A stretch of DNA of 64,000 nt from the NCBI RefSeq assembly GCF_000143415.4, contig NW_003314262.1, positions 4,586,389-4,650,388 on the forward strand, read 5' to 3'. Of this stretch, positions 1 to 43,037 are shown piece after piece. The notes below the pieces were generated by a model that was not told the origin of the DNA, did no database searches, and saw only the letters and a program-made list of their open reading frames with translations. Every line of letters begins with the position of its first letter. Positions within the stretch are counted from its first letter, which is position 1. A program made the translations under genes and the position numbers. This DNA is from Selaginella moellendorffii. Taxonomy: Eukaryota; Plantae; Lycopodiophyta.

Positions 1-1093
1 ATCTCAGACTCGACCTTGGACTCCATGTCGAACTCCATCTTGGGTCCATCTCGAACTTCATTTCGGGTCCATTTTGAATTCCATCTCGGGTCTATATCGG
101 GTCCATCTCAAGTCCATATCAAACTCCATCTCGGACTCTTTCTTAGACTCCTTTTTGGACTCATTCTTGACACTTTCATGTGTCATTGTAGCGCATGTGA
201 TCATGGGATGAGATTTGGATATACTGTTACTGTGGATCCTTGGAACCTTGGGGGATAAATGGGGATAAAATAGCCACTAAGGGCTCTCTCATCAAGCAAT
301 TGCCCCTTTTCCAGTTGGCTTAAGGGGAGAGAGATAAGGTGCGCTACAGTTGGTATTAGAGAAAATGGCACAGGTTTGATTCCCATTGATTAATGGCTAC
401 CTAAAATATAATATACCCTTGAGCAAAGTATCTAAATTTGAAATCGTACGTATTGGGCATCCATGCGTACGTCTTTCCTCTTGTGTGGAGTATCCACGGA
501 CGAAGGTATCCACTGTGGGACTGCGGTACGGGTGAATGGCTAGTTGCCTCATATGGAATAATTGGTCTACACAATGGAAGGATTGGTAGATTCAGTGCGG
601 AAATGGAAGTGCTAATTCCCCTTGGCTCAGTAGAGGTTGTTAGTCAATAGTCAATGAGGACATTAACATCTCTGAAGGGGGGGTGAGTGTAACGCATGTG
701 ATTATGGGATGAGATTTAGATATACTGTCACCGTGGATCCTTGGAACCTTGGGGGATAAATGGGGATAAAATAGCCACTAAGGGCTCTCTCATCAAGCAA
801 TTGTCTTTTTTCTAGTTGGCTTAAGGGGAGAGAGATAAAGTGCGCTACAATTGGTATTAGAGCTGCATAACACTTGCCATGTGTTAGTCCTTCTTATATC
901 CTTTTTAGAGACTCATCACTGATTGCTTCATGCTCATCCCTCGAGCACTTCAATCAGAGTCCACTCCCACTCTCGACTTTCAAAGTTAGAGCCTTTGGTC
1001 CAAACATGTTATACTTGTTAGACTTCCACTTTGACCATTACTATGTGGCATATTTTCTGCTCCACTTTGGGGCTTAGGGATTTATGTCTCATA
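1..1093 (-). mobile_element. LTR (partial, runs off window start), same family as 7257-8974; interrupted by a TRIM
   Basis: Has GGACTCCATCTC-type 12-bp repeats at 1-170. Ends ...CTCCACTTTGGGGCTTAGGGATTTATGTCTCATA, matching the end of the LTR at 8974 (...GGGCTTAGGGATTTGTGTCTCACA). Confidence 0.75.
187..849 (+). mobile_element. TRIM (terminal-repeat retrotransposon in miniature), non-autonomous
   Basis: Two 162-bp direct repeats (187-348, 688-849), the first bounded by TGTAGCGCA...TGCGCTACA. tRNA-iMet-type PBS TGGTATTAGAG after LTR1, PPT GAAGGGGGGGTGAG before LTR2, and a non-coding interior of ~340 bp. Confidence 0.9.
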
Positions 1094-2050
1094 GTGGGGG
1101 TTTAACACGTTTAAGTGTTACTTATATATTACATAATTTTATAATTGTTTATAATTGTTTTTTGCTTGTCTATGACAAATGTTGCATAAGTTGGGTCTTT
1201 TTTCTTTGGATGCCTAAGTTTAAATGTAACTCTATTTTGCCTAAACTTCCTTCTTTTGCTTTGTCTAGGAAGATATAGAAGATAAAATATTTACCTTTTC
1301 ATCACTCCCCCATAACAAAGCTATTGTCTGTTCTTAGGTATGCTTTGGTGTAGATCATCGAGTTTTTGACACATTTTCTAATTTTCCTAGTCAAGCATTG
1401 CAATGCCCTAATCCAGCGATTGATGCACTCTGGATGTGGAAGCTAAATTCTACTGTTAAATTCTTGGATTATACAGCGTTGATAATTTTGCTTGCCCATG
1501 ACTCCATCCACTTTCTTAGTGATTGTTTTCAAATAACTCAAGACCTATATATGGTATTTTGTTGTTTCTTTGTCTTTTACCATCTATATTAGCTTGTCAA
1601 CTGGCTGCTTGTCTCCTCCTTTGATGTGTTGAGTAAGCTTCTCTATAAAGCTTCAGATTGCTAGCTCACTTGGCTAATTCATAATCTTGTGAGTGAAGGG
1701 GCAACTATCCTTGACTTTGTAGTGCTAATGCAGGGTCTTTGTTATTGTGGCTACCTCATCTTGCTAAACTAATCAGCTGAGAGGGTGTCATTATTGAATG
1801 CATAGGTGGACTAAAGAAGATTAAGCCCGTACTCTTTCCATTCACCTAGACCCTCTTTTGTAGTCTCATCCTCTTCATCCTGGTGAGTTTCTTGGCCATG
1901 ATCTTGGCCTAAACTCACCTCATTGGCTGTATCTACAGCCAATGGTTTTGTAGCATCTGTAGGCACATTGTGTGTCAGAATTTGTGGCCTAAGTTGTGGA
2001 ATTTCTTTCACAACTTTAGTATTCATCATTTGTCTAGTGTTGTCCATTTG

Positions 2051-2638
2051 TGTAGCACACCCTATCTCTCTCCCCTTAAGCCAACTGGAAAAAAGGCAAT
2101 TGCTTGATAAGAGAGCCCTTAGTGGCTATTTTATCCCCATTTATCCCCCAAGGTTCCAAGGATCCATGGTGACAGTATATCTAAATCTCATCCCATGATC
2201 ACATGCGCTACACTCACCCCCCTTTCAGAGATGTTAATGTCCTCATTGACTATTGACTAACAACCCCTACTGAGCCAAGAGGAACTAGCACCTCCATTTC
2301 CGCACTCAATCTACCAATCCTTCCATTGTGTAGACTAGCTATTCCATATGAGGTAACTAGTCATCCACCCGTACTGCAGTCCTATGGTGGATACCTTCGT
2401 TCGTGGATACTCCACATAAGAGGAAGGACGTACGCATGGATGCCCAATACATACGATTTCAAATTTAGGGGTAGGAATATACCTTGCTCAAGGGTATATT
2501 ATATTTTTAAATAGCCACTAATCAATGGGAATCGAACCCGGGAATCGAACCCGTGCCATTTGCTCCAATACCAACTGTAGCGCACCTTATCTCTTCTCCC
2601 TTAAGCCAACTGAAAAAAGGGCAATTGCTTGATGAGAG
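2051..2638 (-). mobile_element. Second TRIM copy (5' LTR runs into assembly gap)
   Basis: Reverse-complement match to 187-849: 3' LTR at 2051-2212, then PPT, interior and PBS; 5' LTR from 2576 into the Ns. Confidence 0.88.
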
Positions 2639-6810: not shown

Positions 6811-8249
6811 ATGAAGTTATAAGCATAAATATTGTCTATATTTTAGTGTACAAAACTATGGATAAGTTCATGGATGAAGCCTTCACAAAGATTCATTGTG
6901 ATGAGTTATCTAAATGCATAAATAGGGTGGCCAACTAGATGAAGGATAGGGGTCTAGAAAAATTCTTCAAAACTATATCAAACTTTATAGACCTATAGGA
7001 AGGCAGATTGTTTCTTTAATTATAGGATCCTATAAAACTTGCTTTCAAAATGGATGAAGGGGATATTAAGATCACTCAAGATTTTATTTCTAAGCTTTTT
7101 ATCTCATCATAGAACTAGATAAGTGGAATTGGAGAGGAGTAGTCTTTCCTAATAAGCTCAGACAAGGATGTGTTCACTTAGAATAGAGGGAAAATACATC
7201 CCTGGGAAAGATTCATCTTTATACTAGAGAAACATTCATATATCTGAGTGCTTTCTTATAAGCGACTAAATTTTCCATTCTACTTTAGTCACTTAACCAC
7301 ACCTTCAACCATTTGGAGGAGTCTCACTCACAACCTTCGTAAGTTCTATTTTGGACTTAGGGACTTGTAAGCCCCAAGAATGGCATCCATACCACTCAAC
7401 CATTGCACTTGGTCCAAGTGATCCACATGTCCGATCCCATGACCGACACCTCAAGATACGACCGACATACCAGCCCGTTACGCTAAGGCCATGCCCATTC
7501 ACTTTGGTCACATAGGTAGTCAACCACCACCTACATCGTAGTCTCATCTCTCCAAAACTGGGCCATCCATCCATGAGTGACCATCCTAGGTCCACTCTTT
7601 AGCATCTTTAAAATGCCTACAAACATAAGGAATAGCCTTCCCCAATATCCTTTTTACAGTCTCTACTAAGTCCCTTTTCTGTCCATGGCCGTGTTCGCCA
7701 ACACTGCCACTAGGACAAGGCCCACAGGCCCAACCACTAAATCCCACTGTCCTCTGGGACTTCCTCATTATATGACCGTATCATTGGTCACTACACCAGA
7801 GGACCATTCCTCTTCCTTTCCATAATCTGGGACTTTGGGAGAACATTTCGGAACACCGTGGCCTTACGCAAGCCTCATGGGTACTCTCCCCACCTTCCAC
7901 CTTTGGGTGCTCTAGCCATGGGTTTAGAGCGAGGTTCCGTTGAGCCACGCTAGGTATCCAAATAGGTAATGCTACCCACACTTGGACTGAGAGCATCGGC
8001 CATTCGATCTCCCAAGGGAGCTAGAGCCGGCTCTTGAACACTTCACTAAGTTACCCCATTTGTTAGTCCATACTCACTCTAGGCTTGGACTTCCCAGTGG
8101 TTATCCCATACCCAACACTGGGTATAGCCTTCCTGGGCCAAATTGGCCTTTCCTGGCTAAACTGGCTCCACTGGAATCCTCCCTCTACTATACTTTTGGA
8201 GCTCACCAAACCCCCAAGGGTCTGGGAGACGAACGCTTTGGGCTTTCAC

Positions 8250-8748: not shown

Positions 8749-10141
8749 CATGTGTCATGTGTTGGTCCTCTTGTGTCCCTTTTCTAGAGACTCACTTATT
8801 GCTCGCTTGGTGCTTGTTCCTCAAGCATTTCATTGGGAGTTCCACTCCTACTCTCGACCTTTCAAGTCGGAGCTTTTAGTCCAAACGTGTTACGCTTGTT
8901 TAGCTTTTGCTTCGGCCACTACCATGTGGCACCCTTTCAGCTCCATTTTGGGGCTTAGGGATTTGTGTCTCACAACTCCAACACCCACAGACGAAGTTCA
9001 ATGTCCTTATCGAACGATAAATTATTTTATAAAGTAATACCAGCATGTATTACCCTTCCTATCCTTGGCACCTAGCCAATATTTGTCAAGGGTTGGACAT
9101 CGAAGGCTCACCCTGCCTTGTCCATTCTCTAAGGAGCATAATCTCTCCAACTTAAAGACTTATTTGACTATTTGTGGTGGTTCTCTCCTTTTATTAGTTT
9201 AGTTTTTGCTAAACCGGTTAGAGACACTTTCTCTATCTTGATCCCACTACTCATTCTCGAGTAATCTTAGTTTCTATCAATATAACCATTCCTCTTTGGA
9301 ACTTTTAATATTGACTTCTCGAAGTCAATTTCCTAGGTGTCTCCGACACCTTTCATTGCACATATTGTGCAAACTCCACTTCTCCATCCTAAAAAGTTCT
9401 CTACTTGAGGGCACCATCCTCCTCTTTTCTATTTTGTGCTATCTTTAGCACTAAGTTCCAATTATCATAAATTGTGCTATAAAGCTCTATTTCGTTAAAG
9501 TGGGATTTATTTAGTAAAATGGGACTAGGTACAAATTTTCAAGTATTTGAAAATGACGTGAAATTATATGTTTTTTGTCCAGGGGCTAGACATATCTGGG
9601 GCATGGTGACTAGCGCGGTGACTTTGTGTCCAGACTGAGTCCATCTGGTTGTATAATAAATCTCATTGTCAAGGTGAACAAGCCGAATCTGAAGCTAAAG
9701 AAGAGCGATGGCATGCGCGCACACACTATTTGTTTGTTCATTGAGCGTGTGGTGAGCTTTCCAAGATGAACGTCATTCCTATTAGCCAAACATATAACTT
9801 AATGGTGAGAACATTTAGATATTATTCAATGTTATCTTTTTCTAACGAATCTAATTGTGAAGGTGTAGCAAGAGGCATTGCTAGTCTGGAGAAGTCATTT
9901 AACTCATTTGACCCTTAGTGTATTTTCATGAAACTAAATAACATTCATATTATTAAGGAATTTCTCTAGTACCTTTTTTTTACGACATAGAGGCTTGCAT
10001 TTCTTTCAAAGGTGATTTAGTAAAAGGCCTGAGGGCACATGCCATTCTATTTCTCAGACTGGTATTAAGATATACTAGTGCAAAGGGAAAAAGGTATTTG
10101 GTGATCAAGTAAATGGCATGAGGGCACACGCCATTATAAGC

Positions 10142-10400
10142 CTAAGCGCTAGTGGACACCTCCTTTTTGGTACTCTCAGCGGTACTATCATCCTTCTCCG
10201 GGTCAGTTGTTTTGCTTTGGATTGTTGTCTCTGATGTTACTGGGGCATTTTCGATAGTTGTTAATGTTGCCGTTTGTTCAGAAAAATGATCACCTGGAGT
10301 ATAGTACGAGGAGTTTGGAAGACTTATATATTCTACATCTTCACCTATCTCCTTCTCCGTCTCCTTTTCTGCCTCACTTACAGATTTTGTGCTTGCCATG
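10142..10400 (-). CDS. Possible small S/T/E-rich exon inside transposon, function unknown
   Basis: MASTKSVSEAEKETEKEIGEDVEY... is open in otherwise AT-rich sequence; no recognisable motif. Confidence 0.25.
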
Positions 10401-11193
10401 AGAACGCTCTTCACCCTAAAATATGGAGTTCGTTGTGTTATAAAAGGAAACCAACACACACGCTGCAAGGGAATGATGGTACATAAAGCACGTAAGCCCA
10501 CAATATGGGTTTATGTGCCATTAATATGGGCCACACGCCATATTATTAGATTTATGCACGTGTGATTGGTAAATGCATATGTCACATCATCTTTGTTTTA
10601 CCTCACACACTATATCAGGCCTAATGAACCATATCACATGTGCGCACATGCTATATATATGGAGAAGTATTATGCAAGGATAGAAAAATTCAATGCATGA
10701 TTGTGGAGAGCAATGGCATGAAGCCACATGCTAAATAACATTTTAGAGAAAGAATTAAAATAGAAACATGCAAACAGTACTGAGTGGACCAAGACTTAGA
10801 AGTGCACAATTGAATGAGGTATTTCTAATAAATATTTCACTCACCTCATATAGGAATGGCTACCACTCTCAAATGGCGTATCGCCTCATGCCATCACCTC
10901 GCAATTTGTTATAACAATCCGATGAATTCATATTCGGCTTGTTCACCTTGAACTTTAAGTAAGATTTGCTAGAACAACTAAGAATTTATACTTGTTATTT
11001 GTATCATCTCACCTAGGAATGGCATAAGGCCACATGCCATCACGCCTCCTCTGATTCAGATTCGGATTGTTCACCTTGAAATAAAATACATTAAAAACTT
11101 AGTAAAAGAATATTAATGAATCTCACCTTGAACCCAGGTTATGAATGCTCTTGCTGCATCTCTTGCATGGTCTGGCAAGGTGATGGTGGCACT

Positions 11194-14181
11194 CTACTTC
11201 CACATCCAACCATGCACAACATTATCCACCGATATGCTCATGCTGGGATCCCTTGGATTCAGCACCCATCTCTTTTCTAGGCAATCCTTCGTATATCCGG
11301 AACTTGGCTTGAACCACTCCACAGTTACATTGAAAGAGTTAGTTTCCGCATCCTCCTCTGCATCAGTGATGCAGCGCCCCACCCATTTCATTTGTTTTTT
11401 ATTACTAGGTCTGACAAGCACGACCATTCCTTTGCAGACCTGTACTGGATTGAATGCTGAATCCGGCTTCTTGTTCCTCGGCCCACAATAGTGATCCTCA
11501 ACATCGTTATCTGTCACTGCATTTCTAGAGGACATTGTTCCGCTACTATCTGGTGCTCTGGGTTCTGGCCAAAAGGACTCTTCCAATTCTTCATATACAA
11601 CTGGCCCATTTTGGATAGCAGATATAATCTTCTCCCAGTATTCGAGCAAAGGCTTGCACCTCTGAAAATAGGATTCTCCACCAAACACCAACCCCCTCTT
11701 CCAGAAGGCAATATGCTGTCTAATCCCGGCCACTATACTTTCCTGGTCTTTGAGTCCATTCGGGTGCATCGGCCATGGGGAACCCTGAGGAATCATAGGT
11801 TCCCCAGTTATGGGATCTCTCTTGAAGAGTTCAATGCCGTCCACTGGCAGCCACACTGTGTCCCATTCTCTCATCTTGTACCTCATCACTAGAGCACCGT
11901 CACGCATGCTGAAATGAAACTGAAGAGGCTTGGAGTGGCCAATCAGCATTTCGGATCCGTCCCTGATGTAGCCTCTTACAAACCCCTTAAAGTCTGGAAC
12001 CTCTGTCACAAGTGCAGCTTCAACAGTGCCTTTGATGCAATTTTGGAATTCATCGTAGAGTTGTGGGAGGGTGAGGACATTGGATCGCCGGAGGGACTCT
12101 GCCAGGTGACTGAACATGGCATCGACATCTTCATGAGTGTGCCCAACCATGAGAAAGCCAAGTGTAACCGTTTCAAATATGCCTTTGGCAACAAGCATCG
12201 CCAAGTACGCGAAGATGTACATGTTTTTGTTCTCACTGCCAGCATTGTCTGTTTGGAGCAGAAGATGGGGTGGAAGGCCATATCGGCCGCAAGAACTTCC
12301 TTGAGATTCTACTTCGTTTAGATGAGGCTGTGCATTCACCGGGCGACTAGCCTCGTCGGAATGGCATGAGGCCTCACGTGATAACCCTACAATCTGACGG
12401 CCAACATATTCACTGGGATGGCATGGGGCCCCACGCGATACTGCAAGCCTTTGCTCCTCCTCCAGCTGAACCCTGTATGGGGTTCGATCGACAAGGGCCT
12501 TATGCAAGGGTTGGCCGTTCAGCTCAGTCTGCGCACTTTGCAGAGACCTTAAGTGTTTTGCTAGGGATGCAATCATCATGTTTGCACCCCCGCCACCCCA
12601 TAGAGGTACAAAGAAGTTCCCATAGTTCTGGGCACCATGCCCATGAGCGATTATGCCAAACAGAGACACAGGCAGCTGCATGGATGAAGAGATTGCCTTG
12701 GGGGCAGGATTGAGTCGAGGTAAGCACGTCTTTTTCTGGTCCATTTTGTCGTGGATGATGCAGAGGTAAGAGTCAGGTCTCTCCATGGAGAGAATCCTGT
12801 TATGATAATATGTAGTCCTGCAGCTTCTCTGCTCGATGTTGTGGTCGAGCTGCCTTCTAACCAACGTCTCTCGCTCTTGAGTGCTGCAAGAATTCTTCGA
12901 CAAAACCATTTTGATAGCAGTGCACTCGTCACACTTTGAAAAGCTGGAGTACTTTCCTATACTCACATCCCTGAACCTGTTGCTCCACAATCTACTAAAT
13001 CTAGATTGGCTCAGCTTCCTGTAGCCATTACTCTGGAGTTCCCGATTCACATCTTCCAATATGGCCCCCTTGGTATACATGGAAGGGAGAACTCGTTGGG
13101 TGTCTCGTGTTCCATCTTCCAAGAGGCGGGTTTTATGTGGTTGCTGCTCGCTATATGTCTCGACAAACCTTTTGAAGATTGCCTCTCCATATACAACATG
13201 ACCCCTGGTTTTGTACGTACCGTCGTTCCCATGGGCTGCCTGTTGAACCCTTTGTTCCTCGAACTCAGTTTTGATTCTGTAGAATGTGGTTCGAGGGACT
13301 CCATAAATGATTCTCCATGCCTTCATGCAGACCAAACCCCTCTGGAAGACCATGCCCCCCACCTGATGTTCTGAAGCATCAACAGATGACCGTAATGCCT
13401 CATACACAAAATTGCGAGCTGCCTTCCAGGACAATGTCTTGTATCTTGCTCTCTCCTCTTCAATAGCATCCCAATCAGCATGTTGACAGCACCTCTTCTT
13501 GCAACAAGCAACTGTCGAGACCATTCGAACCTCCATCGCCATTTTCTGCCTTTTCGGTTCGTTGCTCAGATCCCTTTGGCTGCGCTTTAGGAAGGTGTAC
13601 TTTCTTTTCCCATGAAGAGATGTTTTGTCATCAATTGTAGTGGTGTTTGATTGTGAATCCTTCACATTCTCAAACACTAAGTGCCTCAATTTCCACCGCA
13701 CAATGCTTCCAATAGTCAGACTGTTTTCTTTTGTGTCAACAACCTCTAAAATCGCAACTCCAATATCATCCCAACCCAATTCTTGATTAGCAACCGCATC
13801 TCTTGGATCGACAACTGTGGCTAAGCCCTCAGCTACCACCTCCCCCTCGGGGTTGTTTAGAAACACCTTTGCCTGAATCCATGTAGCACGGTTCTTAAGA
13901 TCCACGGAGGGAACATGCGTTGCACTTGCGCTGTCCCCAACATCTGCTTTCCTCTGAAGATTTTTCAAGGCAACAACAACATTTACCCCGACAACCATCT
14001 CTCCTCGTTCAATAGCAACCACATTCCTATCGAAGACAGTCTCTACTGATATAGCAGCATTGACTTCCCCAAGCCTTTGACAGTGTATAACAAAGTTCCG
14101 ATCCATAGACACAATGGTCCCTTTTGCAACTCTCTTCCCACCATTCAAAATGTAAACCTTTTCCCTAACCCTGAAGGCCAT
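11194..14181 (-). CDS. DDE/RNase H-fold transposase (Sola1-like) with N-terminal TNP1-like repeats
   Basis: 995-aa ORF. Contains a CDEC zinc motif, CIIHDKMDQ, LQTDNAGSENKN and FLMVGHTHEDVDAMFS catalytic-type motifs, and lies between TIRs. Confidence 0.85.
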   Translation of the reverse strand: MAFRVREKVYILNGGKRVAKGTIVSMDRNFVIHCQRLGEVNAAISVETVFDRNVVAIERGEMVVGVNVVVALKNLQRKADVGDSASATHVPSVDLKNRATWIQAKVFLNNPEGEVVAEGLATVVDPRDAVANQELGWDDIGVAILEVVDTKENSLTIGSIVRWKLRHLVFENVKDSQSNTTTIDDKTSLHGKRKYTFLKRSQRDLSNEPKRQKMAMEVRMVSTVACCKKRCCQHADWDAIEEERARYKTLSWKAARNFVYEALRSSVDASEHQVGGMVFQRGLVCMKAWRIIYGVPRTTFYRIKTEFEEQRVQQAAHGNDGTYKTRGHVVYGEAIFKRFVETYSEQQPHKTRLLEDGTRDTQRVLPSMYTKGAILEDVNRELQSNGYRKLSQSRFSRLWSNRFRDVSIGKYSSFSKCDECTAIKMVLSKNSCSTQERETLVRRQLDHNIEQRSCRTTYYHNRILSMERPDSYLCIIHDKMDQKKTCLPRLNPAPKAISSSMQLPVSLFGIIAHGHGAQNYGNFFVPLWGGGGANMMIASLAKHLRSLQSAQTELNGQPLHKALVDRTPYRVQLEEEQRLAVSRGAPCHPSEYVGRQIVGLSREASCHSDEASRPVNAQPHLNEVESQGSSCGRYGLPPHLLLQTDNAGSENKNMYIFAYLAMLVAKGIFETVTLGFLMVGHTHEDVDAMFSHLAESLRRSNVLTLPQLYDEFQNCIKGTVEAALVTEVPDFKGFVRGYIRDGSEMLIGHSKPLQFHFSMRDGALVMRYKMREWDTVWLPVDGIELFKRDPITGEPMIPQGSPWPMHPNGLKDQESIVAGIRQHIAFWKRGLVFGGESYFQRCKPLLEYWEKIISAIQNGPVVYEELEESFWPEPRAPDSSGTMSSRNAVTDNDVEDHYCGPRNKKPDSAFNPVQVCKGMVVLVRPSNKKQMKWVGRCITDAEEDAETNSFNVTVEWFKPSSGYTKDCLEKRWVLNPRDPSMSISVDNVVHGWMWK

Positions 14182-14348
14182 TCTAAAAGTGCAGAAAAGA
14201 AGTTAAAACCATACAAAAAATGATTGGAGAATGGCCTAAATCATAACATACCAAACAACCTCAATAGCATGAGGCCACATGCCATTATTCAAACATGCTA
14301 TTGACACCCACGTGAAATTTCGCATTCACAAAATTGGCATGAGCCCTC

Positions 14349-17300
14349 ATGCCATTAGTGGTACCAGCTGCTAGCTTTTCATCTGTCAGCTCTAATTGTT
14401 GTGCATTTCTGAACAGGCGAGGAATTGCGTTCTTCTTCCAGCCACTGTCAATGTGGATGCAGAGAAGGGGGAGGAGCTCACCAGTTGGACTTTCGGGATG
14501 GAAGGCGAGGATCTGAGGCTGTACAACACAGATGGTGGGAGAAAAGAATGCATGGGGATCCTCATCCAAGTGACAGACACTCCATGCAGTTCCATGCAAG
14601 AATATGGACTGGCACTTGTGGTAGAGACAGTGTCTGCCTTCAAGATCCACCTTGCACATCCTAACAGCTTCCCGGAGGGGGGCAGCGGCTATGAGGAATT
14701 CCTAGAGGGAGCTAGGGAGAGGTTGTCCAGGAGGCCCACAATTTCAAAGACGCTGCGGGTCTATGAAGATCACATGGAATCCACGGACCTCACCTACGGC
14801 GATGTTCAAAAACTATATTCCAACATTGAGCCGTTGAGAGTGCCTCCAATTCGCGAAGCGAAGGGGAAGGGGGTCGATCTGGAAACTACCCCGAAGCAGA
14901 AAAGGGTGGTCAAGCTCAAGCCGACGTTCGACTCTCCTGCTCAATAAAAGAAGCTACTTGGTGATGCCATTGCCTCGGATTCGAACACTACACCCACCAA
15001 AAATAAGAGCCACAAAGAGCAGAAAGAGCAAGAAAAGGCAGCAAAAATCGTCGCAGATAATAGTACTTGTTACTATTCCAACAAAGTATATACAATCGAC
15101 GTGAGCCGTATCGACATCCAAAGCAAATACAACCACAGGCTAGTATCTGATGAGTGGGTGGAGAAACTGAAGCAGAAGATGCTGGCAAGTCCAGTAACAC
15201 CCGCCATCGCAGACGTGATCCCCTACTACCGAACAATGAAGGGCGAGACGAGGTTTCCAGACTTGATCAATAAGAAGGTGTTGGACGATCAGAACATCCG
15301 GTTCTATGCCGTCTCCGGGCAGCATTCTAGCTTGGCGATGCAAGAGATAGTTGTGGATATTATGATGGGCGAGGAGGTGAAGAAAGTCTTCAAGACAAGA
15401 GTTGTCCACCTGATAAAAGGCAACTCGCCCCTCCGATCTATCATATACATCTCCCACGCGCAGAATGTCAAGCAAGAAACGTGCTACAAATCGGGTCTAC
15501 ACGAGACATTGGCACGAACACGGAAGCTCTGGGTTCAACTGAAGAAGCCACAAAAACCAGGACAAGGACGTGCACTAGCAACTAGCGCCTGGCAGGTAAG
15601 CCTCGTTGCATGTGGCATAGCATGTGGCCTCACGCCATTTCCATTGCAGGAATTCTCGAGTCTTCTCTCGAAAACACTGGGGGTCAATGACACACTCAGC
15701 ATCCATAACATTCTACTCGCGACAAAAGTTGTTTTTGACAAATGGGTAGATGTGCTGAGGAGGTACCATGACGGGGAGTTGCTAAACTCAATGGGTGTGG
15801 AGGACAGCCGGAAGCCCAATGATTTGAAGCTCAACGCCTTGCGTTTCTCGCGGTCTCTAGACGACGACGACCTTCTGACAGTGGCTAATGCTCTTCTATG
15901 TGGTGAGGTAGTCTTCAACAAGACCAAAATGACTCTCGGCAATATTGTGACATACGAGGACTTGTGCACGACTCTGAGAGCTCGTGCGCTATTGAAGGAT
16001 TCGATCTTCGAGCAAGTGGCCGTGGAGAGGGTGAGCATCGACACCACGCAAGAGATGATGGAAGCGCTGGAGTTGTCAAATGAAGACATCGACGAGTACG
16101 TGAAGGGGGCCCCCAAGTTCATCGATCTGCTGCGGGATGCCACGAAAAGTAAAGCTGAGAAGTTGGATCAGTATCCAAATTTCATTAAGAGGGATGTCGA
16201 CCGCCGACTTCAGAAACAGCTCAACCCCGCAGCAGAGGCCTATCGAGAACCTTACCGGGTATACGTGAATTCGGATGAGGATCAAAGGTGGAGGAGCATT
16301 GTTTCCCGCAGAGATGAGCAAGTCAAGAACATCTTTTGTGTGATGGACTTCACAAACGAGGAGATCACTCATGCAGACAAAGTCAGCTCCATCATTGACT
16401 TAATGGTGGGACTTGCGAAGGTGGAATCTTCAGTATGATCTACGACTCCGAATCCTATCACAAGTTCTGGAAAGCCTTGAACGAGGTGAAGGCTCGGTTG
16501 AAAGGCAAGGAGATGCGGGAGATCCATGGGATAATGGCTAAGAAGAAGATACCAACGAATGTCCGCATCTTCACACTCGCCCTTGTTATTGGTCCTGCAG
16601 CAGAGTGGGACTGGAGTGACTTCCCAGCTTCGTTCGACAAGGCCGATCGAATTGATTTGAGGGAGGTCAATTTACCCGTGCCTGAGGAACTGAAGACGGC
16701 TATGGAGCTTTCGAATCCAAAGAAAGAAGAAAGCTCCAGGTGCAGCATGGGAAATGCTCAGTTGGGTCTTCAACGCAATAGCGGGTGGGTCACCTGCTTC
16801 CGACTCCAAGAGCAAATGCATTGTCGAGTACAACTGCGGCGGACTATTCTTTTGAGCCGCACTACTCAAGGGTGTCCCGTGTGTTGCGGTGACAAACTCC
16901 ATTGAAGAGGTGACTTCAATAGAGTATATAATTACAGTTGCCAAAGAAAAACAGTATCTTCTCTGCGAACCTGGTGAGTACGCACTTTAAGTTTAAATGT
17001 TATCTCACAAGCTCTGTATGTAGGAGCGTGGCCACCCCCAGATGCTGAAACGGCATTAACAGCTACTGTTGAAGATACCCATGTTGGGCCGAGCTCACAA
17101 CCTGCACAAGGTAAGGTCACGTGAGGCCTCACGCCATTTTGATTATAGATCATTGTGAATATTCAGACACGAGGACTGAAAAGCACACTGGTGGCGCGTC
17201 GAAGAAGGACAAACAGACAAGCAATAGGAAAAAAGGAGGTACAAATTATATTTGCAATGGCGTGTGGTCTCATGCCATTCCTTGCAGGAGACACTTCTTC

Positions 17301-17948
17301 AAAGGCAAAACAGGCAAGCACCAGCCAAGCTCAAACTGACAGTGGTCATAAAAAGCGAAAGCACATTGGACAGTCGTCGGGATCAGAGGCGTTTGATTCG
17401 AAAAGGAAGAAGGGCAACGAAAAGATGATAGGTAATGCCTCGCGGTTATGGCGTGTGTGCTCATGCCATTCATTGCAGATCAAGGGCTGAGTGAAAGCAG
17501 CCAGTCACCACCTCCTGACTCAGATTCCTATAGCGGACTCCCCTTCCCCAATCTCAATGGAGAGGTACAATGGATGAGGGATGCTTTTCAAGTCAGGGCC
17601 ATGTTTTTCTCATCTCGTCGTCTTTGAAGGGTGCAAGAACGTGCAGAAACCATGTTAAGACAGTCGGGTGAGGATACAGTCCTAGATCATGCACTAAAAC
17701 AAGCTATGGATGTCTTGTATTTTGAGATGGAGACTCGGCCAGATGATTTTCCCAAGATGGTCCTGGAAGAACAAGCCATCCAGCCTGAGCAGCCTATGGA
17801 AGAAATGCAGGAGGGGGATGAGGAGCCAGAGAAAGATAATGAGCAGGAAGAGCAGAAGGACGAAGAGGAGGACGAAGAGGACTTGGATGGTCCTCACAAT
17901 GGTGACGATCACAATAACGACGACGAAGATGATGACGACGATGGCTAG
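14349..17948 (+). pseudogene. Transposon accessory gene, 5' part: ParB/Srx-like domain, degenerate N4/N6 methyltransferase-like fold, acidic region
   Basis: ORFs 14396-14947 and 15101-16438 are in frame across a single TAA. Contains the ParB-like FYAVSGQHS motif, frameshifts at ~16435 and ~16725, and the segment CIVEYNCGGLFF*AALLKGVPCVAV. Short GT-AG introns at 15596-15649, 16974-17023, 17111-17148, 17239-17287 and 17432-17478. Confidence 0.6.
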
Positions 17949-18279
17949 CCTGAGGTGGCCAAAGAGCAGCGGAGGAAGGTCATACAAGACAAACCATCAG
18001 GTAAATAATAGTACATCCATTCCTAACCTTTTACCATTTCTAACATTGTCCATGTAGGTCGCAGAGCAAATGGTAAGTAGAGATTATTCAGTTGAATTAA
18101 GATACAAACTCTAGCCTTTAGTGTCGAGGAAGGATAGTGCCAAGCAAGGGTCGAAACGTATGTCCAATCCTTTAGAATCAGCAGTGCGCCCAAGTGATAT
18201 CGGTCCTAGTTCCTCAATAGCAGTTGATGGTAAATACAGTATAGTCGATTCAATGTGCTAATGAGTTTGTTTTTAGTAG

Positions 18280-19774
18280 CCAGTAGGGAGGATACCATCT
18301 CAATCGAAGGGAGATATTTGGACATGCATATGGATCCGCCAGTGGACTCTACTTGCCTGCAAGAGTCATCAGAGCTGGTGGAGGCTACTATCCATATCAA
18401 TGCCAAACAAGCTGACCATGCTCCACTTGATGCTGCCCATACCACTGAGTCAATCTTGTCCACGTATCCAACTGACGGTGACCAGGCGCCATTGGACCCG
18501 CATGAGGCCGCCCCAGCCGCCGAGCCGGTCGTATCCTCATTTCCAACGGACTCAACGTGTGCCCAATCGTCTGACTACGCGCCGTTGGAACCTCCCTACA
18601 CCGCCCCTGCTGCCTGTTCGGTCATGTCCACTTTGCCAACGGAGGCACCAGCTGAAATGGCGTGTGATCACATGCCATCGGAACCACCCCATGCCACTAT
18701 TGAGCCAGTTGTACCAAAGTCTACAGCTGAAATGGCATGTGCCCACACGCCATTGGATGCAATTGACCCCACATGGCAAAGGAGAGTATTTCCGCCCTTC
18801 ACGTTTCCTCGACTAAAACCCTCTCAACAACCATCGGGAGCACCATTCGCTAATATTGTAGATGGTAAAATTGACTTGTACCATTTTTTATGCTGACGCA
18901 TTTCATTTCAGAGTCACGGCAAAGGTACTGTATCGTTTTTGATCTAAACGGTGTCCTTTTCTCCCATGAGCGTGGCTCGTCCTCGAATGTCACTGCACCC
19001 TCCAAAGCCTGCAGTCGCAAGTTGGTCAAAAGAGACAGATTCACATTAATCACACGGGAGAAACTGCGGGATCTAATAATGACCATGCGACACTTAAAAC
19101 AGAGGGCCGGGTTCAATTTGCAATTGGGAGTTTGGACATCCATGATGCGCCACAATGCATTAACGTTGCTACAGATGATGCACGATCAGACGCGAGTAAT
19201 ATTACCATTTGACTTTCTCCTAACGTAGGAGGATTGCTTGACTATGGTCCATGTGAGGGGTAGCAAGCCCATCTTCGTCAAGCCAGAGGCTGTAGTGATG
19301 AACCGGACTGCTAGGTCAAGTGAAATCCTCATCATCGATGACTCGCCGATTAAAACTACAGCGAACATGCACACATATGCAGTGCACCCCATCTCTTGTA
19401 GTATGGAAACTAGGGAGAAGAAACCGTATGTTTTGGGGGACCTTGCAAAACGGCTTGGAGCGATGGTGATAGAGAACCGGCCAGTCCAAGAGGTGGCTGC
19501 AGAAATCAACCAAATGGCAGATGAAACGGTATATCAGAAGCCATTTGATCGGACAGACACCAGTCATCATTTATGGCATGTATATTGTCTAGCCAAGCAC
19601 TATCCGCATCTCCATAATCTGCTCAACCGGATGGGTTCTTCAACCACTGAACATGAGTGTGGACGTATTAGAGAAGAGATGGCATTACTATTGGGTTTAA
19701 ATCCTGATAGTGTGGAGAGTGATGAAATTCCAAAATTATTGTATAGGCGTTGGAGGCAAAAAATAACAGTCTGA
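18280..19774 (+). pseudogene. FCP1/NIF-type HAD phosphatase-like domain preceded by a Pro-rich region (probably the 3' part of the accessory gene)
   Basis: Motifs CIVFDLNGVL, GVWTSMMRHNA, KPIFVK and ILIIDDSPIK..N..AVHP. Intron 18865-18911 joins it in frame to ORF 18255-18896. Internal TAG at 19226-19228. Confidence 0.75.
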
Positions 19775-22700
19775 GATGGCATGTATTTATTTAAAAATGT
19801 AACTTATTATGGCATGGGGTTCCATGCCATTGTATTAATATTAAAAGACAATTCTTTGAGAGGATTTACATTATACTAGAAGTGTTACAGCATGTTATTG
19901 GAAGTCTATGAAGTTGTTTTATTAATAAGGGGAAAGTAAAGATTGAATAGGGACTTGGGCTCCACCTAGACTCAGAGCAACTGAGCCAATATTAAAAGGA
20001 TGGAAAGAAATTGGACGACGATGACAAGGAGAAGAGAGAGGTGAAGCAGTGGCAGGGGGAGGAGAAGTGATTGAGTAGACATTTCCTTGTTTAAAATAAA
20101 ATGGCATGTGCCTCAATGCAGTTGAATTTTGTTATATTTATATACTATATAAAGGTTTGGAAACCTTATTTTACAAGTGGGATAATGACAATTCCCACTT
20201 TAACGAAATAGAGCTTTATAGCTGTCCACAGCCGTATCATTTGGCTACTTTGCCACTCTCTCCCTTAGAGGTTTCACCTTTGCCAAATTAGAGCATTTGA
20301 GAATCCATCCTTAGAAACACACTTCCTTTCCCACAATCCTTTAGCATCCAACACATTAGTGTTTCTTGCCTAACTTTGCCATTTGGATTCCTTCCAATGA
20401 ATTTCATGGCCCACACTTGGCCACTAGCGGTTTGCTTCTATCCATTGATTATTGCACCAAGTAACATAAGATCACTACCTCCATTCTCGAGGTATCCTTT
20501 TGGTTCCATAGCAAAGGCTCTACTTGTTGAGTCTAGAGGGTACTCACCCCTAGTACGTCTCTTTAGCATTTTTTGTTATAGGCTTCGTCCACGGCCCAAC
20601 TTTGCGACCCTCCCATAAGTCTTTCCTAAAGATTACTTTCTTAGACTCATTATACCATTGTTTTGGCACAATTAATTTCCCTTTTGGTGTCCTTCCCATT
20701 TGGTCACCTTGACCAAGCCACACTATTATCAATAGTTAAAATCAACACTTTGAACTAAGAATTATGTTTCTTAACCCAAACAAAGACATTATCCTTGTTT
20801 AGCCACAAGATCACCTAATGATCTCATCTTGATCCCTTAACAGATACCAATAAGAACTAGGTCTTCTAGACTTTTTAAATTATTGACTATAACCCCAGGG
20901 GCATCCCCCACACTTGGCGGTGTGCCCAAGCCAGCCCTTCCAACTAAGGATCTATCTTTTTGGCATCACATGTTTCCTTCAGTTATTCTCCTCCAGATTA
21001 AAAGGATAGCTTTGCACTTTCTACCATGCCTTAGCAAGTATTCTTAAGGATGAACTTACCCAATAGCCTAGAGAGTGGTTCTTCAATCCAGGTACGCTCA
21101 CTTTGTAATCCCATACACCGAGATTATCGTTGTTACTTATGGGCCTTTCTATGCCCATCACTAGCCTTGCCAAAATCCTTTTTTTGGCTTTGTCCAATTC
21201 AGATAGATAGACTACTCCCATCTCCGCAACTTTGAACATTAGATAGCACTTACTACCCATCATTTGTTAAAGACTTAGTCCCTCAGGTCTTATCTAATGC
21301 CTTCATAACACCAAATACCACCTCTTGGTGTTTTAGAGTGTTTGGGTGTTCTAATGATAGCCTCTTTCAATGAGCATTCCCTTTACGACATTGACTTGTT
21401 ATATCGTAGCATAAGCAATTTATCCCCCATAAGGATACATCCAACTTCCCTATCCCAATAAAAAGTTTTAAGTAGTTACTTTTTATTAGTTTAACCAATT
21501 ATTTTGCACTTTTTGCTTAGTTGCCTTATAATGGTCAAGTCCTACAACTCATTGCTGGTGTTTCCACACCTCCATCATTATTTAGGTCACTACACTCCAA
21601 CTGCATGCCTTTTAGCTTAGGCTATGCCATTTCTATTTCCATTAGAATTCCTTTGGGAAGGGGTTCTCATGAACCTGCCAACTTGAGCTCAAGGCATCAC
21701 GCCTTGGTGCATTTGATGTCTCTACACCATCAGCTCCACGAGTCTACCTTTATGACACTTCGTACTTGTGTCTAGGTCCTTGCCAGAATCAATATAGTTC
21801 TTTCTCATGCCAACTATTTATTAATACTGCACCATAGAGTTTACACACAACTTTGTGTCAAAGTTGTTTTCTTCTAGGAACACCTTTCCCATGACTTTAG
21901 TATAGCATATTCTGCCATCAATGAGATACCCACTGTTCTCATACTTGGATTTTATGATCCTCCCTATCTTTCGTGGGGCACAATACACCTCAATCCAAAT
22001 GCTTTTACCAATCCCTTAGGACCATTCCTTGACTTTACATGAGTCATCTAGTATTTTTGGATTTTGCTAATCCAATGACCTGTAAGGTCCTATTTTTGAG
22101 GTGCTAGCTCGTTGGAATACAACTTTGTGTATTCATGTCTTACTCACAAGGACCATCTTTGCAAATGTTACTCTAACACATAATTATTCCTCGTTTTCTA
22201 TAGGCTACTCTCGCTCCTTAGGACTATCCATCCATATGATGAGAATACCGTCTCATCCTTTGAGCACACCCCCAACTTCTTGAGTTTATTCCAACATTTA
22301 TAAAAGGTAGCCCCGACTACCATTTCAATGACTCGTGTCTTCATCCATATTTGACCTTTCACAGTCATTAATTCCGGTCTCAAATTCATGAGCACAAGCC
22401 TCAACTATATGAGGATAATTTTGTGACTCCTTTATTGTTTTGGAGTCTCTATCTTTCCCATGATCCCAACTATAGTTGTTTACCACAACTACATTAGCCC
22501 ATTTGCTAAGTCAAACACTCATTTGGATCACATCCTCAACTCTCTAAGGAAAACCTTATACTATTCCTAAGATCCTAAAATCGTTCCATTATTGGCCTTT
22601 TTTTATCCACCACCTCATCTACAAGTTCACATATGAACTGTAGTGGAGAGCCATGTCTTCTCGACTTGCTACTCCCTAAAGATAGCCCCACTCCTAGGAC

Positions 22701-23439
22701 CTTCCGATACTAACACTAGTGGTGATATACTTGAGCACTAATAAAAGTTAGACTAAGGAACAACTTTGATACCAAATTGTAAGCGACTAAATTTTCCATT
22801 CTACTTTAGTCACTTAACCACATCTTCGACCACTTGGAGGAGTCTCACTCACAACCTCTGTAAGTCTTGTTTTGGACTTAGGGACTTGCTAACCCCAAAA
22901 ATGGCATCCATGCCACTCAACCATTGCACTTGGTCCAAGTGCTCCATGTGTCCGATCCAATGACCGACACCCCAAGATACCACCGACATACTAGCTTGTT
23001 ACGCTAAGGCCATGCCCATTCACCTTGATCACACCGGTAGTCCAACACTACCTACATCGTAGTCTCATCTCTCCAAGATTGGGCCATCTGTCCATGAGTG
23101 ACCATCTTAGGTCCACACCTTAGCATCCTTAAAATGCCCACAGACATAAAAAACAACCTTCCCCAATATCCCTTTTATAGTCCCCACTAAGTCCCTTTTC
23201 TGTCCATGGGCGTGTTCACCAACACTACCACTGGGACAAGGCCTACAGACCCAACCATGAAGTCCCACTGTCCTCTATGACTTCCTCACCACATGACCGT
23301 ATTATTGGTCACTACACTAGAGGACCATTCCTCTTCCTTTCCACAATCTAGGACTTTAGGAGAACATTTCAGAACACCGTGGCTTTATGTGAGCCTCATG
23401 GGTACTCTCCCCACCTTCTGCCTTTGGGTGCTCTAACCA

Positions 23440-23956: not shown

Positions 23957-24177
23957 CTACGTCAAACGAATTATATGATTCCTAGGTCCATTTCATGGAT
24001 TTTTACCCAAATTACCCACCTTCTCATAAAAGAAGAAAAGAAATTGGCATAATACAAGGCAAGTAAGTTCTTATAGAGTGGTTAGAATTCTATAGTATTG
24101 CAATACAAGTTCAACCAACTGTAAAGACCATGGGGTAAGCAAAAATCTTCAACTATTGAAATATAAAGTAGTAGTAC

Positions 24178-24478
24178 TTAAAAATATAATATACCCTTTA
24201 GCAAGGTATATTTCTACTTCTAAATTTGAAATCATACGTATTGGGCATCCATGCAACAGATATCCATTGTAAAACTGTGGTATGGGTGGATGACTAGTTA
24301 GTGAATGTAACCCATATCCACTGTAGGCCTGTGGTATGGGTGGATGACAGTGTTACCTATATGATCATGAAATAAAATTTGGATATATTGTTATTATAGA
24401 TCTTTGGAACTTTAGGGGATAAATAGAGATAAAATAGCCACTAAAGGCTCTCTCATCAAGCAACTACCCCTTTTCCAG
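24178..24478 (+). mobile_element. Degenerate third TRIM fragment
   Basis: Matches the TRIM interior (AAAATATAATATACCC..GGGCATCCATGC) and part of its LTR (AAAATAGCCACTAAAGGCTCTCTCATCAAGCAA). Confidence 0.75.
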
Positions 24479-24589
24479 GCAATGTTAGGAGTCCACCTCA
24501 GCTTCAAGAAGATTTTGTTCATGTCTAGGCTAAGCCAATAGATTCAAGAGCTTCTCTTGTTCCTGTCACTTATCGTGACCAAGAGGTAG

Positions 24590-28878: not shown

Positions 28879-29058
28879 TTGTCATTGGAACTTTTCCTTG
28901 GACTCTAATTTTTTATATCTTTCGGAGACTTTAGATAAAGACACAGAAGAAGTTGGAATACAACACTCCCAAGATTTTTTTAATCGCGCACAGCACTCTC
29001 TCCCACACATTAGGGCTCTTCCGCGACAATATTTAGGGTTCTTCGCAGTTTCCTCCAA

Positions 29059-30075
29059 ATGAGCTCCTTTTCTCTGGCGCAGCACCGCCGGCTGCTCCTG
29101 CTGCTACTGCGGCCGCGATCAGCGCGGGGTGTGAGCAGCTCCTGCGCTCGATTGGCCGATGACGATGAAAAGAAGGTCTCGTCGAGGCTGTTCCAGCGGC
29201 AGCAAGTGATGAATGCGAGGGAAGAGGACGCGTTGGAAGAGGCTACGGGGCCACCCCCAAAGGTTACAACGGGTGAGCGTGTTTCTCTTGTTTTCTGGAG
29301 TATTTTCCTTGTGTATGGTTTCTTACTCTCTCGCTTTGCTTGTCTCTTTTTTCTTTTGCGCTTGAAAGATCATGTTACGATGAGCTTCGCCAGGAGCAGC
29401 GGTGCTGGAGGCCAAAACGTGAACAAAGGTACGTGGTTTGCCAGTTTCATTGATCCTTCCCTCGTACCAAATTTTCCTGTGGCAGTGAACACCAAGGTGG
29501 ACATGCGTTTCAAGGTCATGGCTGCTCAGTGGCTGCCCCTCAGAGCCAGGCTCAAGCTGCTTCAAACGGTCGGTCATGTTTAGAAAGAAGTGAGAGAGCT
29601 GTGCTCGTTTCGGCGAAACGCTTGCGAACTCATCGTTTTTGTAGGAAAGGAACAGGATCAACAATGAGGGGGAGCTTGTTGTGACATCGACAAAGAACAG
29701 GACACAAAAGTACGTAGTGCTTGCATTTTTCTGGCAGAGCTTCACGACGGATAATTGGCAGGGGAAACATAGAAGACGCGCTTGAAAAAATACAGGTAGG
29801 TGATTGATAAAGAAAGGTTGTGAAGCTTAGCCAATTTTTCCAACTCTTGCAGGAGATAATTGATGAAGCATGCTATGTGCCGCCGCCTCCTTCGGAAGAG
29901 ACGAAAAATCGCGTCATCAAGTTGTATGTAGTGCTGGCGATTCCTCCGTAATCCATTGTAAAGGACTGACTGCTGGTCTCTTGTGGATTCCAGAGCTGCT
30001 GCTGAAGATCAGAAAAGGCTCCAGATAAAAAAACAAATTGCCAACAAGAAATCGTCACGGAGGGAACGTTTCTAG
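29059..30075 (+). CDS. ICT1: Organellar peptidyl-tRNA hydrolase, ICT1/ArfB(YaeJ)-type RF-1 domain protein, ~7 exons
   Basis: Transit-peptide-like N-terminus, then SFARSSGAGGQNVNK|VNTKVDMRF (GGQ motif), RINNEGELVV, NIEDALEKIQ and a basic tail. GT-AG introns; stop TAG at 30073-30075. Confidence 0.9.
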
Positions 30076-30825
30076 ATCGAGGTACAACCAGTAGAGAGAC
30101 AGATAGGGAGCGTGTGTAATTACGTTGTGTAGAACAAAATACTTTTTTCTACAGAACGTGCAAGCTTCACTTAAAAACTGTGGTACTCTCAGCAATCAGT
30201 CCCTTCCGTGGATACACTCAACAACGGGGTAAAAGCTCTTAGCTCCAGTCGCAGCTATCGATGTCTTGCTTATTCCAAGGGAAACTTTCGAGTTCGATGT
30301 GCTAATATGGACTCCGGACAGTGCCGCCAGATCCACATCTGGGTGTCTCTCCGGATGGAGCTCTTCATGAAGGTGGGCATTGTGATTTCTCATTGTCTGT
30401 ATACCCCACTAAACTGTTTCACTTGAAGATAGAAATGCAGGTAAATAATCGATGAGAGGTTTTGAAGCTAGCCAACTTTGTTCACTTTGCAGGAGATAAT
30501 TGAAGAAGCATTGCAACGTTGCAAGGCCATCGCCGTGGTGCTCTTTGCAGAAGATCTGGAATTGTTAACAGTCAAATTGAGGTATGCGATACAAGAGTGA
30601 TTACTGCTGTCTTTGGAGTGTTGCATTGAGGAATAATTGTTCGTGCATTTTGTTTCCTTATACATTCCATACTTTTAGTGGTTGTTCATATTTCGATTTC
30701 GTTACACCTTGTGTGCACAGACTTGAAATATCACAGGAACGCAAACTGGCGCAGTAATCCATGCCCTCTCTCCATTTGGCGGTCTTGTCAAAGAACAAAG
30801 TGGCCTCTAACTGGCTGTGGCAAGG

Positions 30826-43014: not shown

Positions 43015-43037
43015 TTTATAATATTCTGCCACAAGCT

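What the first reader, a model, noticed from the sequence alone, without database searches (positions are those of the whole stretch)
9476..20222. 10.7-kb two-gene TIR transposon that does not fit standard superfamily rules
Seen: perfect 30-bp TIRs starting GCTATA (not CACTA), a 3-bp flanking duplication TGT, and divergent transposase and accessory genes ~170 bp apart. Known: Sola elements make 4-bp TSDs; CACTA and PIF/Harbinger make 3-bp TSDs but have different transposases. The D..ENKN..GHTHEDVD core looks Sola1-like. Inference: a poorly described or undescribed lineage of large cargo-carrying plant DNA transposons.
Basis: partly seen in the sequence, partly recalled or inferred. Interest (0 to 1): 0.72.

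Follow-up and report, generated by a model that had tools for sequence, protein, structure and literature searches.

The report
Giant plant Sola1 transposon, ParB cargo
This is a real, slightly decayed copy of an abundant 10.7-kb cut-and-paste transposon of a plant whose ends follow the normal 4-base rule of the Sola1 group rather than breaking it, and which carries a second gene with a predicted ParB-type fold and a phosphatase-like domain that likely acts on mirror-image DNA words scattered along the element.

Summary
In public runs, coverage starts at 9482, and empty host sites keep six letters where the element sits. This gives ends 9482-20216, 24-bp TIRs (AAGCT...AGCTT) and a 4-bp TATA duplication inside a palindromic target. 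The '3-bp TGT' is host sequence. Moss-type relatives end AACAC...GTGTT, with exact 4-bp duplications in 3 of 6 loci and 3-bp in none. The DUF7869 transposase matches three motif blocks of the published Sola1 profile by eye. The divergent accessory gene has a ParB/Srx fold (Z 10.0) and an FCP1/NIF-like domain; 18 copies of a 21-bp palindrome lie inside the element and none outside. This is the design of Sola1-1_Ec32 of Ectocarpus (PMC12477816), in a land plant. It differs by the phosphatase-like domain, no detectable methylase, and Tudor-like and BAH-like barrels on the transposase. This copy is broken by stops and frameshifts and differs about 1.3% from run contigs. Verdict: a new variant of Sola1, not a rule-breaking lineage.

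The parts
9478..9481 (.). Left target-site duplication, TATA (4 bp)
   Evidence: Terminus at 9482 plus six-letter empty site and boundary table
9482..9505 (+). Left TIR, 24 bp, begins AAGCTC
9482..20216 (.). Whole element, 10,735 bp, inside a decayed LTR element (663-bp repeats at 7256-7918 and 22777-23439, 88.7% alike)
9708..20121 (.). Dispersed 21-bp imperfect palindrome (ATGGCRTG..s.CAYGCCAT): 18 copies at up to 3 substitutions, 19 at up to 4. Seven lie behind the transposase, 2 in its coding region, 2 between the genes, 4 in predicted short introns of the accessory gene, 2 in a Pro-rich stretch, 1-2 near the right end
   Evidence: 0 copies outside the element at up to 3 substitutions, 1 at 4; 100 shuffles of the element gave mean 0.02, maximum 1. 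The introns are read by eye from GT..AG, with no RNA evidence
11194..14181 (-). Sola1-type transposase frame (ATG at 14181). Two N-terminal SH3/Tudor-like barrels (model residues 1-175), helix-turn-helix region, RNase H-like core (450-720; invariant D479, D482, D646, H682, T683, D686, D688), BAH-like C-terminal barrel (908-996). The stop at 11194-11196 is probably premature
   Evidence: Pfam DUF7869 E 1.6e-42, Transposase_23 E 0.019 below cut-off; alignment; model pLDDT 76; fold rows Z 7-8.8; the frame behind the stop resembles the homologs' tails (X at the stop)
14396..14947 (+). First long frame of the accessory gene (183 codons; true start not fixed). It ends in a stop where the runs read another letter
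   Evidence: difference at 14945 in X1, X2 and X9
15065..15484 (+). ParB/sulfiredoxin-fold domain (SGQHS motif) of the accessory protein
   Evidence: Top 8 VIA rows are all ParB/Srx-type, best PadC Z 10.0, rmsd 3.2, 99 aligned; Foldseek Noc E 6.4e-4; homologs
15596..15649 (+). Predicted 54-nt in-frame intron holding one palindrome copy
   Evidence: GT..AG in the sequence; homolog P0046 lacks this stretch and several others break off there; inference
15650..16975 (+). Conserved helical domain, then a frameshifted alpha/beta region at the position where Sola1-1_Ec32 has a methylase; methylase likeness not shown
   Evidence: Homologs P0046, P0047, P0050, P0051, P0058; methylase profile test negative
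16976..18913 (+). Small predicted exons and low-complexity Lys-, Glu/Asp- and Pro-rich stretches of the accessory gene
   Evidence: gene model by eye
18914..19774 (+). FCP1/NIF-like HAD phosphatase domain (DLNGV ... IIDDSP..K), with a stop at 19226-19228 in this copy only
   Evidence: Pfam NIF E 0.018, below cut-off; homolog P0058 has NIF E 5.8e-17 fused to the same helical domain and aligns here at E 0.001; the runs read C at 19226
20193..20216 (-). Right TIR, 24 bp, ends GAGCTT
20217..20220 (.). Right target-site duplication, TATA

Best explanation
The element at 9482-20216 is a decayed copy of an abundant cut-and-paste DNA transposon with 24-bp TIRs and a 4-bp TATA duplication, likely of the Sola1 group, and its accessory protein is predicted to bind the element's own palindromes through a ParB-type domain. 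Shown: ends, TSD, gene layout, the palindromes confined to the element, stops and frameshifts. Inferred: a DDD transposase, supplied by intact copies, binds the TIRs, excises the element and inserts it with a 4-nt stagger, here into a TATA inside an old LTR element. Inferred, about 40%: the accessory protein loads on the parS-like palindromes in promoters, introns and ends and keeps the family expressed or unsilenced, as VANC proteins do for VANDAL elements. Its FCP1-like domain, with Asn in place of the second motif Asp, would engage RNA polymerase II or another phosphoprotein as a weak or dead phosphatase. The transposase's Tudor-like and BAH-like barrels would read chromatin and may steer insertion.
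For: Terminus and empty sites. Exact 4-bp duplications in 3 of 6 moss-type relatives with both ends (ATAT, TAAA, TCAT), one more 3-of-4 match, and a 3-bp duplication in 0 of 6. By-eye match to three blocks of the RNase_H_Sola1 profile, with 36 positions from the second Asp to the His in both. Sola1-1_Ec32 has AA termini, a 4-bp TSD and an opposite-strand ParB gene. ParB fold. NIF fused to the same helical domain in homolog P0058 and an opposite-strand NIF remnant inside the 11.3-kb relative L008. Relatives carry their own, different palindromes. Window-versus-run differences are mostly A>G and T>C (156 of 204 places in X9, host flanks included), as expected from C-to-T decay of a methylated copy.
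Against: Only one complete insertion of this family could be read at both ends; no genome is held. The empty-site letters (TTAGAA, CTAGGA, CTAAGG, CTAGGG) differ from the CTATAG required here at 2-3 of 6 places, so the argument rests on length and on host copies having diverged. TATA and the second seen flank, CTTT, do not fit the AWWT preference called a Sola1 hallmark. The Sola1 profile was compared by eye, not scored, and no tree with Repbase elements was possible. 2 of 6 relatives (L029, L043) show no duplication. The ParB profile hit none of the 80 metagenome loci, and accessory remnants appear in only 2 of 65 non-redundant loci. Binding, catalysis and expression are untested. The BAH- and Tudor-like matches have Z of only about 7 and Foldseek E above 0.001.
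Confidence: 0.8

Rival explanations
1. One reading: a new lineage with 30-bp TIRs starting GCTATA and 3-bp TSDs.
For: The 30-bp repeat is perfect and TGT flanks both sides. The N-terminal barrels weakly match the CACTA-associated Transposase_23 family (4 of 32 members).
Against: Depth at 9476-9481 is about a tenth of that at 9482-9487 or less in three runs. Empty sites retain both TGT words and six letters between them. 0 of 6 relatives show a 3-bp duplication.
Confidence: 0.02
2. The element starts at 9481 with a 2-bp TSD (AT), or at 9480 with none.
For: Both models also give a six-letter empty site.
Against: The depth-105 contig begins at 9482, and another insertion has T, not A, at the position of 9481. 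Relatives give 4 bp.
Confidence: 0.04
3. A sister group of Sola1 (a plant/algal GHTHED.D clade) that deserves its own name, rather than Sola1 proper.
For: The first block needs a one-residue gap against the profile and reads HDKMDQ; the transposase is about 1000 aa against 630 aa for an insect Sola1; it has extra barrels; termini are AA, not GG.
Against: Sola1-1_Ec32, with the same kind of ends and cargo, has Sola1-1_PPa as best blastp hit, and Physcomitrella Sola1 is already listed for plants.
Confidence: 0.12
4. The palindromes are binding sites of the transposase (or of a host factor), and the accessory gene is passive cargo or uses its ParB/Srx fold as an enzyme (nuclease, kinase) without binding them.
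For: The matched fold is the nucleotide-binding N-domain, which sulfiredoxin, SerK and SbnI share. No HTH was identified in the helical part. Relatives with palindromes show no detectable ParB gene, e.g. L081 and the 5.4-kb L064.
Against: ParB genes next to inverted-repeat arrays recur in unrelated transposon superfamilies (Plavaka PAG3; Sola1-1_Ec32). Motifs in the element's interior and in introns are far from where a transposase acts.
Confidence: 0.35

Closest known systems
Sola1-1_Ec32 of Ectocarpus (PMC12477816; passages and supplement rows read; figure not seen)
   Same: Giant Sola1 element; AA...TT termini; 4-bp TSD, biased there to end in A; accessory gene on the strand opposite to the transposase with a ParB-like domain.
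   Different: 21.5 kb with 282-bp imperfect TIRs there, 10.7 kb with 24-bp perfect TIRs here. Its accessory protein has a predicted N4C/N6A methylase; here no methylase was detected and an FCP1/NIF-like domain follows. No palindrome is mentioned in that paper's main text (0 hits for 'palindrom').
Sola1 of Bao et al. 2009, including Physcomitrella Sola1-1_PPa (paper not held; known here only through PMC3845634, PMC9033089, PMC4455052 and the profile in the supplement of PMC5751038)
   Same: 4-bp TSD, TIRs, three core motif blocks, presence in seed-free plants.
   Different: TSD here is TATA, not AWWT. The gene content of Sola1-1_PPa could not be seen, so it may already hold the same accessory gene.
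Plavaka (EnSpm) giant elements of Bostrychia with PAG2/PAG3 (bioRxiv 10.1101/2025.02.11.637652, passages read)
   Same: ParB-like accessory protein beside arrays of inverted repeats, proposed to bind the element's own DNA.
   Different: Other transposase superfamily; PAG3 has a 2OG-oxygenase domain; the repeats there are tandem, here dispersed.
VANDAL/VANC anti-silencing system of Arabidopsis (PMC5735166, PMC10398659; search listing and abstract starts only)
   Same: Possible working principle: an element-encoded protein binds non-coding regions of its own family and counters silencing.
   Different: No homology tested; that VANDALs are Mutator-like is recalled. An analogy only.

Membership tests
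Sola1 | 4-bp target-site duplication | tested here: met
   TATA at 9478-9481 / 20217-20220; 3 of 6 relatives exact
Sola1 | Terminal inverted repeats | tested here: met
   24 bp, perfect
Sola1 | Sola1-type RNase H core motifs | tested here: met
   By eye against the profile consensus: fDlqkvlslPrln / MDQKKTCLPRLN; lysDncagqNkn / LQTDNAGSENKN; Ielkflepg-Hs / VTLGFLMVGHT; same D-to-H spacing of 36. Profile positions 5-30 and 82-124 of 124 were read; no score computed
Sola1 | AWWT target preference | tested here: inconclusive
   TATA here and a left flank ending CTTT do not fit; relatives give ATAT, TAAA, TCAT. Sola1-1_Ec32 is described only as biased to end in A, so AWWT is not universal; too few sites
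Sola1 | Phylogenetic placement with Repbase Sola1 transposases | not testable with these tools
   No Repbase or Dfam sequences available
Sola2 | Sola2 core motifs and G-rich termini (GGCGG in Sola2-1_Ec32) | tested here: inconclusive
   Termini are AAG, not GGC; the Sola2 profile positions read (1-6, 161-185) show no likeness but do not cover its catalytic motifs
CACTA/EnSpm | CACT(A/G) termini and 2-3-bp TSD (recalled) | tested here: not met
   AAGCT termini, 4-bp TSD; only a sub-threshold Transposase_23 match
PIF/Harbinger | 3-bp TNA/ANT TSD and DDE_Tnp_4/Plant_tran transposase | tested here: not met
   4-bp TSD; neither Pfam family matched
ParB/Srx superfamily (accessory N-domain) | ParB-N fold | tested here: met
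   Predicted model, Z 10.0, rmsd 3.2, 99 aligned; top 8 rows all of this kind, next row Z 5.5; no sequence-level match in PDB, Pfam or NCBIfam
ParB/Srx superfamily (accessory N-domain) | CTP-dependent clamp on an inverted-repeat site | not testable with these tools
   Needs biochemistry
N4C/N6A DNA methylase (as in the Sola1-1_Ec32 accessory protein) | Methylase fold with DPPY-type and FxGSG-type motifs | tested here: inconclusive
   hhalign probability 0.2% and no hmmsearch match against a 5-sequence methylase profile; no Pfam hit. An IVEYNCGG word at about 16820 resembles motif I by eye only; the region is frameshifted and was not folded whole
FCP1/SCP (NIF) phosphatases | NIF domain with DxDx(T/V) motif (motif recalled) | tested here: inconclusive
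   Domain supported through homolog P0058; the motif reads DLNGV here and DLNGL in P0058, so the second Asp is missing and activity is doubtful

The most novel reading that the evidence does not exclude
Giant Sola1 elements of seed-free plants carry a self-recognition system taken from bacterial ParB-parS: a CTP-switched clamp that loads on family-specific palindromes planted in promoters, introns and ends, and that, through a captured FCP1-like domain, resets RNA polymerase II or chromatin to keep the family active, while BAH- and Tudor-like domains on the transposase read histone marks to choose insertion sites. This would be an anti-silencing and targeting system independent of VANC.
Probability: 0.25. 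Interest if true: 0.8.

Novelty: new variant of a known kind. Interest (0 to 1): 0.42.

Why it matters
The headline oddity, a Sola-like transposase making 3-bp duplications, disappears, and the case shows how a palindromic target can fake longer TIRs and a false TSD. What remains is useful. The ParB-cargo design reported in 2025 for brown and red algae occurs in a young, abundant land-plant family, with a different effector domain (FCP1-like) and with a defined 21-bp candidate site. Near-intact copies exist in public runs, so the standing proposal that such accessory proteins bind and modify their own transposon becomes directly testable in a plant.

Tried and rejected
No whole genome is held, so TSDs could not be tabulated genome-wide. 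The window holds no second copy of the element and no empty site. Bao 2009 and Yuan and Wessler 2011 are not held. The Majorek supplement is cut before its Sola part; Fig. S4 of PMC3845634 has no sequence. No RNA holder was listed; run X20 is only guessed to be RNA and shows no splicing, so it was not used for expression. The ESM Atlas gave no answer. Searches for longer relatives of the NIF piece and of the accessory alignment found nothing (weak evidence). Viral contigs: 37 pattern matches, no relative. The 16 loci in prokaryote assemblies look like eukaryotic contamination or distant animal-type Sola; not pursued. Rfam: no match. Methylase profile test negative. Two of the 14 hits (P0049, a repeat protein; P0054, an RTX-repeat protein) were dropped as spurious before alignment A2. 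The first exact-match scan for inverted repeats in the 80 loci was mostly noise; the motif scan replaced it. L058 has flanks like those of L008 and is probably the same old insertion; L029 and L043 share one left flank, so their ends may not be true pairs. Literature searches that did not turn up this plant design: (titles and abstract starts only). Repbase entries, subscription papers and the closed bioRxiv supplements could bear on novelty. Contig depth was used to place the terminus, not as a copy number.
Full report
Observation. The window has a perfect 30-bp inverted repeat at 9476-9505 and 20193-20222 with TGT on both outer sides. Between them lie a 1002-codon frame on the minus strand and a broken plus-strand gene. 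No other copy of the element and no empty site is in the window, and no genome is held. The element lies in a decayed LTR element whose 663-bp repeats are 88.7% alike. Neighbouring genes include a plant terpene synthase fragment. The four transposase homologs that NCBI names, of 44 found, are from Ceratodon and Riccia. A seed-free plant host is my inference.

The ends. Twenty of 24 listed runs hold the element; I laid five of them in two calls. Over 8900-20800, run X1 gave two joints across the element: 9476 to 20222 with six letters between, and 9479 to 20222 with three (15 of 115 joint rows were shown). Over 9410-9570, loose ends behind 9479 in X1 and X2 continue with three letters and then the right flank. 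All four versions keep six letters between 9476 and 20222. Three symmetric models give six letters: start 9480 without TSD, 9481 with AT, 9482 with TATA. Depth rises about tenfold or more at 9482 in X1, X2 and X9. In X9, a second sample, the depth-105 contig starts at 9482, and a junction contig links a foreign flank ending CTTT to 9482-9511 without a mismatch. So the element is 9482-20216 with 24-bp TIRs and a TATA duplication. TATA is its own reverse complement and is flanked by GC on both sides, which extends the apparent TIR by six letters; the two TGT words belong to the host. Caveats: X1 and X2 are one sample, the empty-site letters differ from this copy's at 2-3 of 6 places, and the right end was set by symmetry.

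Relatives. A scan of metagenome contigs found 514 stretches encoding a relative; the best 80 were kept, 65 non-redundant. Many end in AACAC...GTGTT. Six non-redundant loci have both ends around the transposase. L008 (11.3 kb, ATAT), L064 (5.4 kb, TAAA) and L066 (14.7 kb, TCAT) have exact 4-bp duplications; L058 matches at 3 of 4 and is probably the same old insertion as L008; L029 and L043 have none; none of the six has a 3-bp duplication (read by eye). L008 holds a NIF-like remnant on the strand opposite to the transposase (E 2e-6), and L040 a remnant of the accessory helical domain; the ParB profile hit none of the 80 loci. Relatives carry their own repeated palindromes: GGTGGCCACC in several moss-type loci and a different 20-plus-letter word in L081.

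Transposase. It matches DUF7869 (E 1.6e-42) and weakly Transposase_23. 43 of 44 homologs carry DUF7869 and 9 also PF26133 (its name, DUF8039, is recalled). Invariant residues in 32 sequences include D479, D482, D646, H682, T683, D686 and D688. The RNase_H_Sola1 profile in the supplement of PMC5751038 (parts 56, 59, 60 read) shows three blocks that match by eye, with 36 positions from the second Asp to the His in both. The part of the Sola2 profile that I read did not cover its active site. The model (pLDDT 76) has an integrase/mariner-like core (best Z 8.8), two N-terminal SH3/Tudor-like barrels and a C-terminal barrel that aligns with BAH domains (EBS: Z 7.5, rmsd 3.4, 81 aligned) about as well as with chromo-barrel, KOW and Tudor rows. 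Foldseek gave nothing at E 0.001. These are leads only. The stop at 11194-11196 is probably premature, because the frame behind it resembles the homologs' tails.

Accessory gene. The 496-codon frame found 14 proteins, 12 of them kept. Its model (pLDDT 67) has a ParB/Srx fold at residues 40-179: the top 8 rows are all of that kind, best PadC at Z 10.0, and Foldseek ranks Noc and ParB first. A conserved helical domain follows. Homolog P0058 joins that domain to a clear NIF phosphatase domain (E 5.8e-17) and aligns to 19118-19435 here. The motif reads DLNGV, so catalysis is doubtful. The region between did not match a methylase profile. An imperfect 21-bp palindrome occurs 18 times in the element and never outside at up to 3 substitutions; shuffles give 0.02. 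Four copies sit in predicted 47-56-nt introns.

State of this copy. It differs from the eight listed X9 contigs at 132 of 9,996 aligned letters (1.3%, summed, table 8). Most differences are A>G and T>C, that is C-to-T decay in the window. The stops at 14945 and 19226 are not shared by the runs. X9 contig 29 has 282 extra letters before 14364, so the gap between the genes is probably longer in the family. The element assembles at depth 80-115 in a 3-Mb contig set where junction contigs have depth 2-9, which points to an abundant family; depth is not a copy number.

Comparison. Sola1-1_Ec32 has AACCG-CGGTT termini, a 4-bp TSD biased to end in A, best blastp hit Sola1-1_PPa, and an opposite-strand ParB-plus-methylase gene proposed to bind and modify its own element (passages and supplement rows). 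Bostrychia Plavaka elements pair a ParB-like gene with inverted-repeat arrays (passages). Physcomitrella Sola1 is listed in a plant review (passages). AWWT is called the Sola1 hallmark (passages) and is not met by the two sites seen here. VANC/VANDAL is a functional analogy (listing only). PMC4738411, PMC10294476, PMC4455052, PMC5753468, PMC6839031, PMC3985635 and bioRxiv 2021.09.26.461848 were searched for passages and added only classification context. Earlier scan notes led me to the Ectocarpus paper and describe a similar moss element; they are leads, not support.

Verdict. A real, young, abundant, two-gene Sola1-type element with an ordinary 4-bp TSD; confidence 0.8. New variant of a known kind; interest 0.42.

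Noticed in passing
runs X1, X2, X9, X24 laid on window 9484-9525: A second end type matches from 9484 (G) onward and is preceded by ..AT (ATAT, ATAT, GAAT, AAAT). X9 contig 20 holds both ends 284 letters apart, like a MITE. It may be a sister family with a G terminus and AWAT targets; its start resembles the insect Sola1 TIR printed in PMC3845634, by eye.
   Followed up: partly
window 10142-10510, minus strand: A 122-codon Ser/Thr/Glu-rich frame behind the transposase with a possible splice acceptor; no Pfam match. Perhaps an alternative last exon.
   Followed up: no
window 9669-9715, 10927-10951, 11033-11079: A short repeated unit that on the minus strand looks like small 3' exons of the transposase gene; the 9669 copy is inverted.
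   Followed up: no
window 182-2638 and 24175-24525: Nested long inverted repeats (418 bp at 93%, arms 432-849 and 2051-2468) of a foldback- or MULE-like element beside an assembly gap.
   Followed up: no
window 43958-45732: A second long-TIR element, arms about 300 bp at 88-90%.
   Followed up: no
window 47960-55223: A Gypsy-type LTR element with gag, protease, RT, RNase H, integrase and a chromodomain-like tail in broken frames; LTRs about 92% alike.
   Followed up: no
window 30807-33763, 41347-43025, 56581-59517, 63506-63996: Four related segments, one with a terpene synthase N-terminal match: a tandem cluster of terpene synthase genes or pseudogenes.
   Followed up: partly
window 29014-29826: An intron-rich gene with an RF-1 (peptide release factor) domain piece.
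   Followed up: no
L081:4505-8580: A relative with an intact 965-codon transposase frame and its own palindrome array, on a contig filed in a bacterial genome assembly; probably plant contamination.
   Followed up: partly
L090, L094: Long contigs filed in prokaryote assemblies that hold distant GHTHED-type transposases among animal-like repeats; probably eukaryotic DNA.
   Followed up: no
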